A stretch of DNA of 64,000 nt from an uncultured Chlorobiaceae bacterium (GTDB lineage: Bacteria; Bacteroidota; Ignavibacteria; UBA10030; SZUA-254): positions 2,848-66,847 of the forward strand of contig CAZEJT010000011.1 of NCBI GenBank assembly GCA_964512655.1, written 5' to 3'. The position numbers were made by a program, and so were the translations under genes. Positions 3,705 to 59,430 of this stretch are shown in pieces. Position 1 is the first letter of the stretch. Each line of letters opens with the position of its first letter. The notes beneath the pieces were generated by a model. It had not been told where the DNA came from, ran no database searches, and saw nothing but the letters and a program-made list of their open reading frames with translations.

Positions 3705-4640
3705 TCAGTTTCTTTTTGCCTGAAATTTCTCGATGGTGCTGCGGGAAAGGAGCAGATTCTTCACCGGCCTTGCCGACCCGGATACCGACGAGAGCCGCAC
3801 GCCGTTGAGCGAAAGTTCCAATGCGGAGGGATTGCTGACCGAAACGAGAAAGGTTTTCTCCGCCGTCCACTGCGCCGAGCGCAGCGGGGGGATCACCGTC
3901 GTGCGGGGCTTCGCGTGATCGACGGCCACCGTCACGGCCACGCTGTCGGTCGCCCTTCCTTCGAGAGTGAGGCTGTCGCCCCGGGCAAGCTGGAGCGCCG
4001 CGTCCTGGGATCGGGCGAGCGAGTCGGACCTCTTCGCCTCGGCGGCGTACTTCGCCTCCTGCTCTTTCACCGCATCCGAGAATGAGATTTCCTGGACCGG
4101 CCGCGAGCCGCCCTCGCGGTTCATCCAGACGATCGAGATCCCGAGGCTCACGATCGTCAGGAATACGAATCCTCCGATGATGGCCCGCTGGTATCCACGG
4201 GCCTTCTCAACCGGCAAATCTCCTCCAGTGTGGGCGCGGGCTTCAGCCCGCGTGCCCCCAGCGGGCCCGGGAATTCGCGATGTCGCAACGGGATCAGAAT
4301 TGGGGTGCACCTGACCTGTGATTCTGTAGGCGCCGGCTTCAGCCGGCGTGCTTCCGGAACCTGGGCTTCGCGACGACGCCGCAGCGGCCGGGGCTGAATC
4401 AACGGGAGGTGCGGGGATGTCGGGGATTTCGTCGAGCTTGACTCCCACCCGTGCCGCGAACGACTGGAGGATCCCCTTGACGTACGGCTCGGGGAGAGGC
4501 GGTTGGATCCCCCGTTCGATCTGGTCGAGGAACTTTGCGTTCAGGTTGATCCCCGCGGCGATCTCCTCGAGCGAGAGACCCTGCCTGAGGCGAGCCTCCC
4601 TGAGGGCTGCCCCGATCGGGATCAGGCGAGCCGCTGTCAC
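3705..4640 (-). CDS. RodZ-like protein (HTH, TM helix, DUF4115-like C-terminus)
   Basis: [20 protein letters not shown]...FLDQIERG...YVKG HTH, one TM helix, C-terminal beta domain ([12 protein letters not shown]). The linker contains two REP copies. Confidence 0.85.
4230..4254 (+). repeat. REP family A copy inside the rodZ-like CDS
   Basis: GTGGGCGCGGGCTTCAGCCCGCGTG; reads TRAEARAH on the coding strand. Confidence 0.8.
4326..4350 (+). repeat. REP family A copy inside the rodZ-like CDS
   Basis: GTAGGCGCCGGCTTCAGCCGGCGTG, identical to the intergenic copy at 59406-59430; reads TPAEAGAY. Confidence 0.9.
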
Positions 4641-4722
4641 GTGAACCTGCCGGGAATCATCTCGTCATCATCAGGAGACCGGGTCGCGATATCGGGGCGG
4701 GATTTTGATTCTGTGCGCAAAC

Positions 4723-6993
4723 TTACGAAGTTCGATTCTGATTTGCAAGCGATCCGGCCCGTCCGGCCGGCGGAACGGGGCGGGAGTCGAGCACCGCCCT
4801 GATTTTCCGGGCCAGGTCCGGAAGCTCGTACGGCTTTTGGATGTACCCGTCGATCGATCGCGCGAACTCGTGATCGTCGAGCATCGCGGCGCTGTACCCG
4901 CTGCAGACGATCACCCTCATCGAGGGGCAGATTTCTTTCACGAGTTTGAACGTCTCGCGCCCGCCCAGCCGCGGCATGTTCATGTCGAGAATCACGAGGT
5001 CGAACGGCCTCCCGCCGCCGAGCCGGTCGATGGCGTCGCGCCCGTTCTCCGCCAGCTCGATCGTGTAGCCGAGCTCGCTCAGGATGTCCGAGCCCACTCT
5101 CCCCACCGAGATCTCGTCCTCGATCAGGAGGATTCGCTCCGATCCTCCCACGATATCGGACGCGGCCTTCTGCTCGGCCCTGATCGCGCCCGAGCGCTGC
5201 GACCTGGGCAGATACATGGTGAACGTCGTCCCGCTGTTCACCTCGCTCTCGACGGTGATGTTTCCATTGTGGCTCCGGACGATGCCGTAGACGACCGAGA
5301 GACCGAGCCCGGTTCCCTTCCCCGGCTCCTTGGTCGTAAAAAGCGGCTCGAACACCCTCTGGAGGTTTTCCTGGGGAATCCCCGAGCCCGAATCGGTGAC
5401 TTCCAGCCTGACGTACGGCCCGGCTTTGCCATTGGCGAGCTGGGCCGCCTGCACTTCGTCGAGGAGCGCGGGCGCGCATTCCACCTTGAGCACGCCTCCG
5501 TTCGGCATCGCGTCGCGCGAGTTCAGGCAGAGGTTCAGGAGGGCCTGTTGGAGCTGGCCGTCGTCCCCGTCGACGATAACGGGTTCGGTCGACGCCGTGA
5601 ACCTGATGTGGACGGTTTTGGGCATCGTGGCTTCGAAGAGCCGGAGCGTCTGGTCGATGATCGTGTTCATATCGACCGGATTGAACTGAGGCGTGTCTTT
5701 CCGGGCGAAGGTGTTGAGCTGGCGCGTCATGGCCGCCCCCCGCCGGGAGGTGGTCTCGATCAGATCGAGGTATTTCGTCAGGCGCTGGTCCGCGGCGACT
5801 TTGCGCTTCATGATCGAGGCCGATCCGAGGATTGCGGTCAGGATGTTATTGAAGTTATGGGCGATCCCGGCGGTAAGGTTGCCGATGCTGTCGATCTTCT
5901 GCGCCTGAAGAACCTTCTCGTCGATCTTCTTCTTGAGCGTAATATCGCGCAGAACGATCCGGACGACCGACGGGTGGCCGTCGACATCGTAGACCAGGGA
6001 GGTGTTGACACTGACGTCGAGCAGCGTTCCGTCTTTCCTCTGCACCTGCTCTTCCACTCCCTTCAGGTCCTGGCCGAACTCGAACATTCTCGTCAGATGC
6101 TCCCTCACATGATCGTGCTCGTCCTCCGGATAGAGCTTGAGAACCGACTGCCCGATCAGTTCCTCTTTCGCATAACCCAGCACCTGGCTCTCCGTGAGAT
6201 TGCAGCTGATCATGATCCCCTCGCGGTTGATGCTGTGGTACATGTCCGGCGAGTACTCGAAGAGATCGGCATACAGGCGCTCCGATTTCTTGAGCTGGTC
6301 GAAGAGAGAGGCGTTCTGGAGGGCGACGCTGATCTGGTTTCCGAAGGCCTGCATCAGCCCAAGTTTCTTGGCCTCGAACTTGCGCTCGTCCGTGCCGGCG
6401 ATGATGAGGACGCCGGCGAAGGAACCCTGGCGGACAAGAGGTATCGATGCGATGATCTCGAAGTCGAGGTTGCGGAATTCTTCCGACGCCGAGGCGATGA
6501 CCCGCGGGTCGCCCGCGTGCAGGACATTCGCCTCAGCCACCCACCGCAGTAGGCCGTCTTTGGCAATCTCCGGCGAAACGAAGAACTCGGGAACCTCTCC
6601 GGCGTGGTGCTTCAGGGTCAGCCCCTCGTTTTCCATGAGATAGATCCATCCGCAGCCGGCGTACATCAGCTCCATCACCTTTCCGAGGGCGGATTGCAGC
6701 ACGTATTCAAGTTCCACCGAATGATTCACCGCCTCCGCAATCGTGTTGAGCTCCAGAAGCTCCCGGCGCTGCTCCTCCAGCATCCTCCCATACTTGAGCG
6801 AAAAGTACACGCTGACGAAACCGATCACTCCCACCGTCAGGATGCTGATGAAATCCAGCCAGGTGAATCGGCTCCCCGTCACGAAATGGACCGTGACGAT
6901 GGTCCCCATCGCGACAATCACCGCCGTTGAGGCGACGATCTGGGACTGCTCTACGAGTCCCATCTTAGTAGCCGGTTTTCGGATCAGTTTCAT
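4723..6993 (-). CDS. Hybrid sensor histidine kinase (2 TM, GAF, PAS, HisKA, HATPase, REC)
   Basis: GIAHNFNNIL H-box, DSGSGI and GKGTGLGL ATPase boxes, C-terminal receiver FDLVILDMNMP. Confidence 0.95.
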   Translation of the reverse strand: MKLIRKPATKMGLVEQSQIVASTAVIVAMGTIVTVHFVTGSRFTWLDFISILTVGVIGFVSVYFSLKYGRMLEEQRRELLELNTIAEAVNHSVELEYVLQSALGKVMELMYAGCGWIYLMENEGLTLKHHAGEVPEFFVSPEIAKDGLLRWVAEANVLHAGDPRVIASASEEFRNLDFEIIASIPLVRQGSFAGVLIIAGTDERKFEAKKLGLMQAFGNQISVALQNASLFDQLKKSERLYADLFEYSPDMYHSINREGIMISCNLTESQVLGYAKEELIGQSVLKLYPEDEHDHVREHLTRMFEFGQDLKGVEEQVQRKDGTLLDVSVNTSLVYDVDGHPSVVRIVLRDITLKKKIDEKVLQAQKIDSIGNLTAGIAHNFNNILTAILGSASIMKRKVAADQRLTKYLDLIETTSRRGAAMTRQLNTFARKDTPQFNPVDMNTIIDQTLRLFEATMPKTVHIRFTASTEPVIVDGDDGQLQQALLNLCLNSRDAMPNGGVLKVECAPALLDEVQAAQLANGKAGPYVRLEVTDSGSGIPQENLQRVFEPLFTTKEPGKGTGLGLSVVYGIVRSHNGNITVESEVNSGTTFTMYLPRSQRSGAIRAEQKAASDIVGGSERILLIEDEISVGRVGSDILSELGYTIELAENGRDAIDRLGGGRPFDLVILDMNMPRLGGRETFKLVKEICPSMRVIVCSGYSAAMLDDHEFARSIDGYIQKPYELPDLARKIRAVLDSRPVPPAGRAGSLANQNRTS

Positions 6994-7123
6994 CGCGTTT
7001 TCCGCAAAAACTCTCGAAAAAATGTAAGAAGAATGGGGGTGAGTATCAAATGGAGGGTGACCGGACTCTGCGGGTGCCCCGTCGCCGCGGCGCGCACGCG
7101 CAAGCTTCAGGCTTCGGTTAGAG

Positions 7124-7271
7124 TGGTGTCACGGTCCAAACCGTGACACCACTGCGGAAGGAGAGAAATATTGGGCGGTAGTCGCGGCCTCTAAAATGGT
7201 GTCACGGTCCATACCGTGACACCGGCGCGGAAGGAGAGGAGTATTCGAGGGGCGCCGGCTTCAGCCGGCGT
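7124..7271 (+). repeat. Mosaic: two family-B palindromes 73 bp apart plus a REP-A copy
   Basis: TGGTGTCACGGTCCA(A/T)ACCGTGACACC at 7124 and 7197, each followed by GCGGAAGGAGAG..TATT; GGCGCCGGCTTCAGCCGGCG at 7251-7270. Confidence 0.85.
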
Positions 7272-59302: not shown

Positions 59303-59306
59303 CGAA

Positions 59307-59332
59307 ACGAGACGGCCGCTCGGCCGCCTCGT
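59307..59332. terminator. Hairpin between convergent genes (possible terminator)
   Basis: ACGAGACGGCCG-CT-CGGCCGCCTCGT just after the HerA stop; no U-tract. Confidence 0.3.
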
Positions 59333-59405
59333 AACGTCACACTCCTGAGCCCTCCCGCTCTTCACCCTCACCTCAGCGGGCATGCACCGGCCGATAGCTC
59401 CGGTT

Positions 59406-59430
59406 GTAGGCGCCGGCTTCAGCCGGCGTG
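59406..59430 (+). repeat. REP family A copy
   Basis: GTAGGCGCCGGCTTCAGCCGGCGTG. Confidence 0.9.

What the first reader, a model, noticed from the sequence alone, without database searches (positions are those of the whole stretch)
4230..59430. About 15 GTAG-REP hairpins, all co-oriented on the + strand across 55 kb
Seen: consensus GTAGGCGC(C/G)GGC-TT(C/T)A-GCC(G/C)GCGT at about 4230, 4326, 7248, 15016, 21494, 28012, 28193, 41649 (degenerate), 41688, 41767, 43493, 45208, 46834, 56319 and 59406. Stems co-vary (CCGGC/GCCGG, CGGGC/GCCCG, CGCGGA/TCCGCG). Every copy I found points the same way, whatever the direction of the neighbouring genes, and none forms an inverted doublet. Known: GTAG REPs are substrates of RAYT HUH transposases and often occur as inverted pairs (REPIN/BIME); IS200/IS605 HUH enzymes act on ssDNA with a replication-strand bias. 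Inference: a singlet REP family spread, or selected, with replichore polarity. No RAYT gene lies in this window.
Basis: partly seen in the sequence, partly recalled or inferred. Interest (0 to 1): 0.75.

Follow-up and report, generated by a model that had tools for sequence, protein, structure and literature searches.

The report
Co-oriented single REP hairpins
Fourteen copies of a small GTAG-headed DNA hairpin, of the kind moved by RAYT transposases, all point the same way across 55 kb whatever the neighbouring genes do, which hints that their spread or survival is tied to DNA replication.

Summary
A covariance model run without filters finds 14 strong copies (32.8-45.6 bits), all on the + strand. 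No independent minus-strand copy scores above 12.1 bits. None of the 14 has an inverted partner.

They are real GTAG-type REPs:
- They have a 7-bp G+C stem with compensatory changes and a TTYA loop.
- The same hairpin flanks REP-associated tyrosine transposase genes in two unrelated MAGs (L020, L011).
- Homologues show that at least three copies are lineage-specific insertions: two sit in frame in a RodZ-like linker and one forms an ORF tail.
- The window has no RAYT (0 of 849 ORFs).

Orientation does not follow transcription, and both strands fold equally well. The polarity must therefore be read from a single strand.

Replichore polarity could not be tested. GC3 skew suggests one replichore, with the GTAG strand on the C-rich (lagging-type) strand, opposite to the IS200/IS605 precedent. 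This rests on weak evidence.

Verdict: a new variant of a known kind, of moderate interest.

The parts
4230..4253 (+). REP copy (head GTGG, stem variant CGCGGGC, loop TTCA). Lies in frame, antisense, in the linker of a RodZ-like ORF (3705-4640, -).
   Evidence: 42.5 bits; ORF translation; absent from homologues
4326..4349 (+). REP copy (GTAG head, CGCCGGC stem, TTCA loop). Second in-frame antisense copy in the RodZ-like linker, 96 nt from the first, head-to-tail.
   Evidence: 45.6 bits
7248..7271 (+). REP copy (head AGGG), between a histidine-kinase gene (-) and tRNA-Pro (-).
   Evidence: 32.8 bits; context; tRNA
15016..15039 (+). REP copy (head GCAG; stem with one G-T and one T-G pair), between two minus-strand genes.
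   Evidence: 34.2 bits
21494..21517 (+). REP copy (head TTAG) in a 34-bp spacer between convergent genes.
   Evidence: 42.9 bits
28012..28035 (+). REP copy, 10 nt from the recR start, between recR (-) and ybaB (-).
   Evidence: 43.8 bits
28193..28216 (+). REP copy in the same spacer, head-to-tail with 28012 and preceded by the family C hairpin.
   Evidence: 42.4 bits; alignment A3
41648..41671 (+). Degenerate copy: intact GTAGGCGC head, broken stem.
   Evidence: 10.7 bits, E about 1; sequence
41688..41711 (+). REP copy (loop TTGA) between lpxC-fabZ (+) and lpxA (+).
   Evidence: 43.1 bits
41767..41790 (+). REP copy (head GTAGC, CGCGGGC stem) in the same spacer, head-to-tail.
   Evidence: 38.8 bits
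43493..43516 (+). REP copy that forms the last codons of the LplA-like ORF 42629-43519 (+), preceded by the family C hairpin.
   Evidence: 41.0 bits; translation; homologues stop aligning near residue 250 of 296
45208..45231 (+). REP copy 26 nt after surE (+).
   Evidence: 44.0 bits
46833..46856 (+). REP copy (head CTAA, first stem pair broken) between convergent genes.
   Evidence: 35.9 bits
56319..56342 (+). REP copy (stem variant CGCGGA/TCCGCG with an A-T pair) between divergent genes.
   Evidence: 36.5 bits
59406..59429 (+). REP copy between convergent genes.
   Evidence: 45.6 bits
7119..7245 (+). Two tandem copies (7119-7172 and 7192-7245) of a second hairpin repeat, family B (11-bp stem, no GTAG head), just 5' of REP 7248.
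   Evidence: family D6; alignment A4; fold -13.8 kcal/mol
14947..15000 (+). Family B hairpin copy, 5' of REP 15016.
28057..28110 (+). Family B hairpin copy, between REPs 28012 and 28193.
28134..28192 (+). Family C element (hairpin plus G+C-rich tail), directly abutting REP 28193.
   Evidence: alignment A3; fold
43416..43474 (+). Family C element, 18 nt 5' of REP 43493, inside the tail of the LplA-like ORF.

Best explanation
This is a family of GTAG-headed REP hairpins: head, 7-bp G+C stem, TTYA loop. In this genome they exist as single units or head-to-tail neighbours, not as inverted REPIN/BIME doublets. They are, or recently were, inserted by a REP-associated tyrosine (HUH/Y1) transposase encoded outside the window.

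That enzyme class reads a folded single strand, so only one strand of each copy is a substrate. I infer that the uniform orientation is the footprint of a strand-specific step coupled to the replication fork. That step could be insertion, or loss of copies lying the other way. On this reading the window lies within one replichore.

Shown: the anatomy, the copy count, the orientation, independence from transcription, insertion polymorphism, and the RAYT link in other genomes.

Inferred: that a RAYT exists in this genome, that the polarity is replication-linked, and that it switches at ori and ter.
For: 1. Orientation. 14 of 14 strong copies are on +, and there is no independent minus copy.

2. 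Independence from transcription. Six copies are antisense to local transcription (2 in the RodZ-like ORF, 4 between minus genes). Four are sense (3 between plus genes, 1 in an ORF tail). Three are convergent and one is divergent.

3. No energetic polarity. The hairpin folds equally on both strands, -10.1 against -10.0 kcal/mol. Only the head, the loop and the closing G-T carry direction, and those are features a single-strand reader sees.

4. RAYT link. The same hairpin flanks RAYT genes in two other genomes.
- L020, ORF 1453-1941: PF01797 at 8e-11; NF047646 at 83.1 bits, cutoff 80. REP hits lie at -1348, +1416, -1942 and +1997.
- L011, ORF 1546-2019: my RAYT HMM at 1e-49; NF047646 at 72.1 bits, below its cutoff. 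REP hits lie at -1998 and +1402.

5. Lineage of the RAYT. Named relatives of the L020 RAYT are largely Bacteroidota, Ignavibacteriota and Kryptoniota. The window's closest named homologues are also FCB-group.

6. Insertion polymorphism.
- RodZ homologues (286 and 279 aa, against 311 aa here) lack the two REP-coded peptides.
- Among the 150 listed of 7545 LplA-like homologues, most alignments end near query residue 235-250, and at most 274, of 296.

7. Conserved copies. Mean column identity is 87% and 97.8% of cells pair. That argues against decayed remnants.

8. One replichore. The GC3-skew replication component has one sign in all three thirds of the window.
Against: - No RAYT lies in the window (0 of 849 six-frame ORFs at E<=10), and the rest of the genome could not be read.
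- Genome-wide orientation is untested (one search was truncated).
- GC3 skew (R = -0.035, bootstrap interval -0.056 to -0.013) puts the GTAG strand on the C-rich strand, the leading-strand template. IS200/IS605 elements carry their active strand on the lagging-strand template (passages in PMC3333891 and PMC3971601). A simple copy of that mechanism therefore predicts the opposite polarity.
- In the best-studied systems the mobile unit is held to be the inverted doublet, with singlets as remnants (PMC3116915, PMC3333891; passages).
- The window was picked because of this pattern, so the chance values are optimistic.
Confidence: 0.55

Rival explanations
1. Local history or chance. The genome as a whole has no polarity, and this stretch happens to hold only plus copies, for example through short-range copying that keeps orientation.
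For: Only one 64-kb window was seen, and it was selected for the pattern. Three spacers hold head-to-tail neighbours 39-181 nt apart, which shows some local copying. Counting loci once leaves 11 events (p about 1e-3, my arithmetic).
Against: The 11 loci are spread over 55 kb in unrelated spacers and ORFs, with different flanks. In other genomes the same family shows a + and a - copy within about 120 nt in 16 of the 30 loci searched, so mixed orientation is the usual state.
Confidence: 0.2
2. A host-selected polar signal. The hairpins are kept in one direction because a host system that tracks replication or segregation reads them directionally, as with KOPS or Chi. Selection, not insertion bias, sets the polarity.
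For: Strict co-orientation at about one copy per 4.5 kb. Two other hairpin families in the same spacers are also all + (4 of 4 and 2 of 2). The polarity relative to skew does not fit the IS200/IS605 insertion rule.
Against: Known polar signals are short oligomers found mostly inside genes, not 24-nt hairpins in spacers (my own knowledge). The element has the full RAYT-substrate anatomy and flanks RAYT genes elsewhere. Families B and C sit next to REPs, so they are not independent counts.
Confidence: 0.12
3. RNA-level elements, either terminators or 3' mRNA stabilisers, whose direction is set by transcription.
For: Most copies lie just past gene ends. REPs are reported to act this way in other bacteria (abstract of PMC3733652).
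Against: Orientation does not track gene direction (6 antisense, 4 sense, 4 mixed). No T-run follows the stem on either strand: at most 6 T in 10 nt, median about 3 on + and 1 on -. A near-perfect palindrome would fold in RNA from either strand anyway. No Rfam family reaches gathering score.
Confidence: 0.05
4. Decayed halves of former REPIN doublets.
For: This is the standard reading of singlets in Pseudomonas (PMC3116915, passages).
Against: No decayed inverted partner lies near any copy, even at E<=10. The copies are well conserved. Random loss of one half would leave both orientations.
Confidence: 0.05

Closest known systems
GTAG-type REP / RAYT (TnpAREP) systems of Proteobacteria (E. coli REP-BIME, Pseudomonas REPINs)
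   Same: A conserved 5' tetranucleotide next to the foot of a short G+C-rich imperfect palindrome. Many copies, mostly between genes. The same hairpin flanks RAYT genes, seen here in L020 and L011.
   Different: No inverted doublets at all (0 of 14), only singlets and head-to-tail neighbours. Di Nocera et al. [quoted passage not shown] All copies are co-oriented. The host is an FCB-group bacterium, a group where that survey lists only CGTC repeats, not GTAG repeats.
IS200/IS605 insertion sequences (IS608, ISDra2)
   Same: A Y1 HUH enzyme acts on a folded single strand, with a guide or head 5' of the hairpin. These elements show chromosome-wide orientation bias linked to the replication fork (PMC3971601 and PMC3333891, passages).
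   Different: The REPs carry no gene. The inferred polarity relative to GC skew is the reverse of the IS200/IS605 rule (weak evidence).
Tandem REP arrays of Pseudomonas fluorescens SBW25
   Same: These REP arrangements have an orientation that mirrors the two chromosome halves: forward near 2 Mb, reverse near 4 Mb (PMC3116915, passage). This is the nearest printed precedent I found.
   Different: Those are a few large tandem arrays in a genome dominated by inverted REPINs. Here, dispersed single copies are co-oriented.
Polar chromosome signals (KOPS, Chi)
   Same: Strand-skewed distribution at a density of a few kb.
   Different: Those are 8-mers that lie mainly in genes and are read as duplex DNA or by RecBCD (my own knowledge). 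These are 24-nt hairpins with transposon-substrate anatomy.

Membership tests
GTAG REP / RAYT system | Conserved GTAG tetranucleotide 5' of the hairpin foot | tested here: met
   9 of 14 copies have exact GTAG. The other five read GTGG, AGGG, GCAG, TTAG and CTAA.
GTAG REP / RAYT system | Short imperfect palindrome that folds as a single strand and is kept by compensatory change | tested here: met
   97.8% of cells pair; 2 of the 7 stem pairs carry two-sided changes (6 cells); 0 of 500 shuffles reach the covariation score. Fold about -10 kcal/mol, z about -3.4.
GTAG REP / RAYT system | High copy number, mainly extragenic | tested here: met
   14 copies in 64 kb. Eleven lie between genes and 3 lie inside ORFs. 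The genome-wide count is unknown.
GTAG REP / RAYT system | A RAYT gene in the same genome, flanked by the same REPs | not testable with these tools
In other genomes the feature is met in 2 of 112 fetched loci (L020, L011).
REPIN / BIME organisation | Two REPs in inverted orientation forming the repeated unit | tested here: not met
   0 of 14 copies have an inverted partner, even at E<=10. In other genomes 16 of 30 loci do.
IS200/IS605-like replication-coupled polarity | Orientation follows fork direction and switches at ori and ter | not testable with these tools
   Only one window is available. Within it the orientation is uniform, and the GC3-skew sign is constant.
IS200/IS605-like replication-coupled polarity | Active (head-bearing) strand lies on the lagging-strand template, the G-rich strand | tested here: inconclusive
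   The GC3-skew replication component on + is -0.035 (interval -0.056 to -0.013), which points the other way. Support is weak: 32.9 kb of genes on - against 26.0 kb on +, and G-rich words skewed to - without significance.
Intrinsic terminator | Hairpin followed by a T-run on the transcribed strand | tested here: not met
   At most 6 T in the 10 nt after the stem, usually 1-3, on either strand.
CRISPR array | Regularly spaced repeats with unique spacers | tested here: not met
   Spacing ranges from 79 to 13,495 nt. The regular 68-nt array in L054 has identical 'spacers' that hold an inverted REP.

The most novel reading that the evidence does not exclude
Across the whole chromosome of this FCB-group bacterium, single REP hairpins keep a strict polarity that flips at the origin and terminus. 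The RAYT-recognised GTAG strand sits on the leading-strand template, the reverse of IS200/IS605. That would be the first genomic footprint showing that REP spread or survival is coupled to the replication fork. It would imply either that copies whose active strand is exposed on the lagging-strand template are excised or counter-selected, or that the host has adopted the hairpins as a directional chromosome signal.
Probability: 0.3. Interest if true: 0.8.

Novelty: new variant of a known kind. Interest (0 to 1): 0.55.

Why it matters
How REPs multiply is still unsettled. The favoured unit is the inverted doublet, and a link to replication has been proposed by analogy with IS608 but not shown in genomes. 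I say this from the passages I read in PMC3333891, PMC3116915, PMC6006769 and PMC8266576.

Inverted doublets hide any strand bias because they look alike from both sides. A family that lives only as singlets exposes it. If the polarity seen here holds genome-wide, one scan of one complete genome would show two things: whether RAYT action is fork-coupled, and which template strand it uses. The two in-frame copies inside a RodZ-like gene also give dated insertion events to compare among relatives.

Tried and rejected
1. Genome-wide test. The core hairpin is shared by unrelated repeats, for example a longer palindrome in 17 alphaproteobacterial loci, so the pattern was too unspecific. No second scan was allowed.

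2. Taxonomy through the listing of cluster members. Placement rests on the names of a few homologues: Bacteroidota and Chlorobiaceae.

3. Rfam. Only a tRNA reached gathering score.

4. CRISPR reading of the regular 68-nt array in L054. Rejected, because the 'spacers' are identical and contain an inverted REP.

5. KOPS-like motif GGGNAGGG, recalled from memory. It gave 11 matches against 11.76 expected, 4 on + and 7 on -, which is uninformative.

6. Skewed oligomers. G-rich words lean to the minus strand, but nothing survives correction for 1104-3207 tests.

7. Terminator reading. Rejected.

8. Literature. Four searches and passage look-ups in seven papers found no statement that dispersed REPs follow replichore polarity. 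This is not proof of absence. Subscription papers, including Ton-Hoang 2010 in Cell, were not read, and no supplements were opened. The additional files of PMC3733652 may hold orientation data.
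Full report
**1. The observation**

The unit is a head (GTAGG in most copies), a 7-bp stem CGCSGGC/GCCSGCG, a four-base loop TTYA (once TTGA) and usually a closing T.

Three scans agree:
- The 12-nt head pattern with up to two mismatches gives 36 matches, against 18.06 +/- 4.09 in 100 shuffles, none of which reached 36. All seven perfect matches are on the + strand.
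- A strict hairpin scan finds 13 family members on + and none on -.
- A covariance model built from the 14 copies, run over both strands with filters off, returns 48 matches at E<=10.

Those 48 matches break down as follows:
- 14 at 32.8-45.6 bits, all +;
- 12 that are the same near-palindromes read backwards (at most 16.2 bits);
- 6 unrelated minus hits (at most 12.1 bits);
- 16 unrelated plus hits (at most 15.3 bits). One of these is the degenerate head at 41648 (10.7 bits).

No minus hit lies near a plus copy, so there are no inverted doublets, intact or decayed. The stem is kept by compensatory change. By my arithmetic, 14 of 14 in one direction has a two-sided probability of 1.2e-4. Counting the three clustered spacers once gives 11 of 11, or 9.8e-4.

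**2. Setting**

The window is dense with housekeeping genes on both strands:
- ligA, an sdh/frd operon, recR-ybaB, uppS-bamA-skp-lpxD-lpxC/fabZ-lpxA, panB and surE;
- several proteins with type IX secretion sorting tails;
- one tRNA-Pro.

The LpxC-FabZ fusion and the Por_Secre_tail domains fit an FCB-group bacterium of about 60% G+C, but that reading of the two domains rests on my own knowledge. The few named homologues are Bacteroidota (52% identical RodZ) and Chlorobiaceae (73% identical LpxC-FabZ).

**3. Position relative to genes**

| Context | Copies | Count |
|---|---|---|
| Between two minus-strand genes | 7248, 15016, 28012, 28193 | 4 |
| Between two plus-strand genes | 41688, 41767, 45208 | 3 |
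| Between convergent genes | 21494, 46834, 59406 | 3 |
| Between divergent genes | 56319 | 1 |
| Inside ORFs | 4230, 4326, 43493 | 3 |

The direction of the hairpin therefore does not follow transcription.

The three intragenic copies are informative. ORF 3705-4640 (-) is RodZ-like:
- It has HTH_25 at 5.9e-11 and a weak RodZ_C match below its cutoff.
- It shows a strong codon signal at both ends and a weak one in the middle.
- The two REPs lie in frame, antisense, in its linker.

Its homologues of 286 aa (74% identical by BLASTP, 81% in the alignment) and 275-279 aa lack the two REP-coded peptides. They are 25-36 residues shorter.

The LplA-like ORF 42629-43519 ends in about 46 residues coded by a family C hairpin plus REP 43493. 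Among the 150 listed of its 7545 homologues, most alignments stop at query residues 235-250 (the latest at 274) of 296, and the best four are 247-261 aa long. These copies are therefore insertions that arose in this lineage.

**4. What kind of element it is**

The single genome-contig scan, run with a 20-nt core, was truncated at 112 loci and missed the source genome. It did show the same hairpin in other settings.

I ran the model over 30 of the 112 loci, chosen for GTAG- or GT-type heads. This gave 66 matches at E<=0.001. In 16 of the 30 loci a + and a - copy lie within about 120 nt. One of these is a five-fold tandem array of a 68-nt inverted pair in L054. Inverted doublets are thus the usual state of this hairpin elsewhere.

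Two loci hold RAYT genes flanked by the hairpin:
- **L020, a Brevinematales MAG.** ORF 1453-1941 matches PF01797 at 8e-11 and NF047646 at 83.1 bits (cutoff 80). REPs lie at -1348, +1416, -1942 and +1997.
- **L011, a Solibacteraceae MAG.** ORF 1546-2019 matches my RAYT HMM at 1e-49. It matches NF047646 at 72.1 bits, below cutoff. A REP whose 23-nt core is identical to the window's main variant lies just upstream, and an inverted one lies downstream.

That is 2 of 112 loci.

The L020 RAYT has 367 relatives at E<=1e-8. Many of the named ones are Bacteroidota, Ignavibacteriota, Ignavibacteriaceae or Kryptoniota, and several are labelled RayT.

The window itself has no RAYT. There was none among the 63 ORFs scanned with Pfam. 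There was also none among all 849 six-frame ORFs of 40 aa or more, searched with an HMM built from 120 RAYTs at E<=10 with filters off. The positive control scored 232 bits.

**5. Where the polarity can reside**

As single-stranded DNA the two strands fold equally well, at -10.1 and -10.0 kcal/mol. No T-run follows the stem on either strand, and no Rfam family matches. The only asymmetric features are the head, the loop and the closing G-T. These are what a single-strand-specific enzyme reads, and a duplex-binding or purely structural process would not see them. This, together with independence from transcription, is my main reason to favour a strand-specific process at the DNA level.

**6. 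Which strand**

I split third-codon-position GC skew into a transcription part and a replication part, using 25,992 nt of + genes and 32,929 nt of - genes. The replication part on the + strand is -0.035, with a bootstrap interval by gene of -0.056 to -0.013. It is negative in each third of the window: -0.019, -0.052 and -0.013.

Established knowledge says leading strands are usually G-rich. On that basis the window lies in one replichore with the minus strand leading. The GTAG strand would then be on the leading-strand template.

IS200/IS605 elements show the opposite, with the active strand on the lagging-strand template and genes pointing with the fork (passages in PMC3333891 and PMC3971601). 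The skew is small, and the supporting signs (slightly more coding on -, G-rich words leaning to -) are not significant. I therefore treat this as a lead. If it holds, the simplest reading is that copies whose active strand is exposed on the lagging-strand template are cut out or selected against, leaving the protected orientation.

**7. Other repeats**

The same spacers hold two further hairpin families, also all on +:
- **Family B:** 4 copies, 11-bp stem, no GTAG head.
- **Family C:** 2 copies, each just 5' of a REP.

They sit next to REPs in mosaic fashion, so they are not independent evidence. All family B copies lie between minus-strand genes.

**8. Literature**

I read passages only, found by term look-up.
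- **Di Nocera et al. 2013 (PMC3733652).** GTAG repeats are listed in Proteobacteria, Cyanobacteria, Chloroflexi and the PVC group, while Chlorobi and Bacteroidetes appear only under CGTC repeats. Singles predominate in three of 24 GTAG families. [quoted passage not shown]
- **Bertels and Rainey 2011 (PMC3116915).** Singlets are held to be remnants of doublets. A few tandem REP arrays in SBW25 lie forward near 2 Mb and reverse near 4 Mb. This is the nearest precedent I found.
- **Ton-Hoang et al. 2012 (PMC3333891), Quentin et al. 2018 (PMC6006769) and Corneloup et al. 2021 (PMC8266576).** The lagging-strand template is proposed as a source of single strands. None of the passages I saw reports REP orientation against replication.
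- **Searches.** Four searches found nothing more. I opened no supplements, and I did not read Ton-Hoang 2010.

**9. Verdict**

The elements are a GTAG-REP family with an unusual organisation: singlets only, head-to-tail neighbours, and strict co-orientation over 55 kb. The host is from a bacterial group where such repeats were not listed in the 2013 survey.

The replication-polarity reading is the best available explanation (confidence 0.55), but it rests on one window. One scan of a complete genome would settle it.

Noticed in passing
window 3705-4640 (-): RodZ-like ORF (HTH_25, TM segment, weak RodZ_C) that carries two REPs in frame, antisense, in its linker. Homologues are 25-36 residues shorter and lack the REP-coded peptides.
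   Followed up: yes
window 42629-43519 (+): LplA-like ORF whose last 46 or so residues are coded by a family C hairpin plus a REP. Homologues end about 35-50 residues earlier. The repeat element seems to have displaced the original stop.
   Followed up: partly
window 7119-7172, 7192-7245, 14947-15000, 28057-28110: Second hairpin repeat (family B): an 11-bp stem with no GTAG head, four copies, all in the same direction, all between minus-strand genes and next to REPs. Identity unknown.
   Followed up: partly
window 28134-28192 and 43416-43474: Third repeat (family C): a 10-11-bp hairpin plus a G+C-rich tail, two copies, both +, each immediately 5' of a REP. This suggests composite mosaic elements.
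   Followed up: partly
L054 1-330: In a Thermoanaerobaculia MAG, five tandem copies of a 68-nt unit made of a REP and an inverted REP. It is a BIME-like array that looks like a CRISPR array at first sight.
   Followed up: yes
L020 1340-2030 and L011 1400-2030: RAYT genes flanked by this same hairpin in a low-G+C Brevinematales MAG (locus 39% G+C, with a G+C-rich REP) and in a Solibacteraceae MAG. The same REP type therefore occurs in distant phyla.
   Followed up: partly
17 loci (L004, L005, L006, L008, L024, L027, L032, L033, L043, L057, L066, L070, L077, L078, L081, L098, L109): Alphaproteobacterial MAGs carry the same hairpin core embedded in a longer palindrome with its own conserved outer arms and no GTAG head. 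This looks like a distinct repeat family sharing the core.
   Followed up: no
window 30805-33891 (+): 1028-aa BNR/Asp-box protein with a type IX secretion tail and four internal DNA repeats about 500-580 nt apart (families D5 and D9).
   Followed up: no
window 43913-43946 (+): A GTAGGCGC head without a matching stem inside panB (15.3 bits, E 0.04). It is either chance or a very decayed copy.
   Followed up: no
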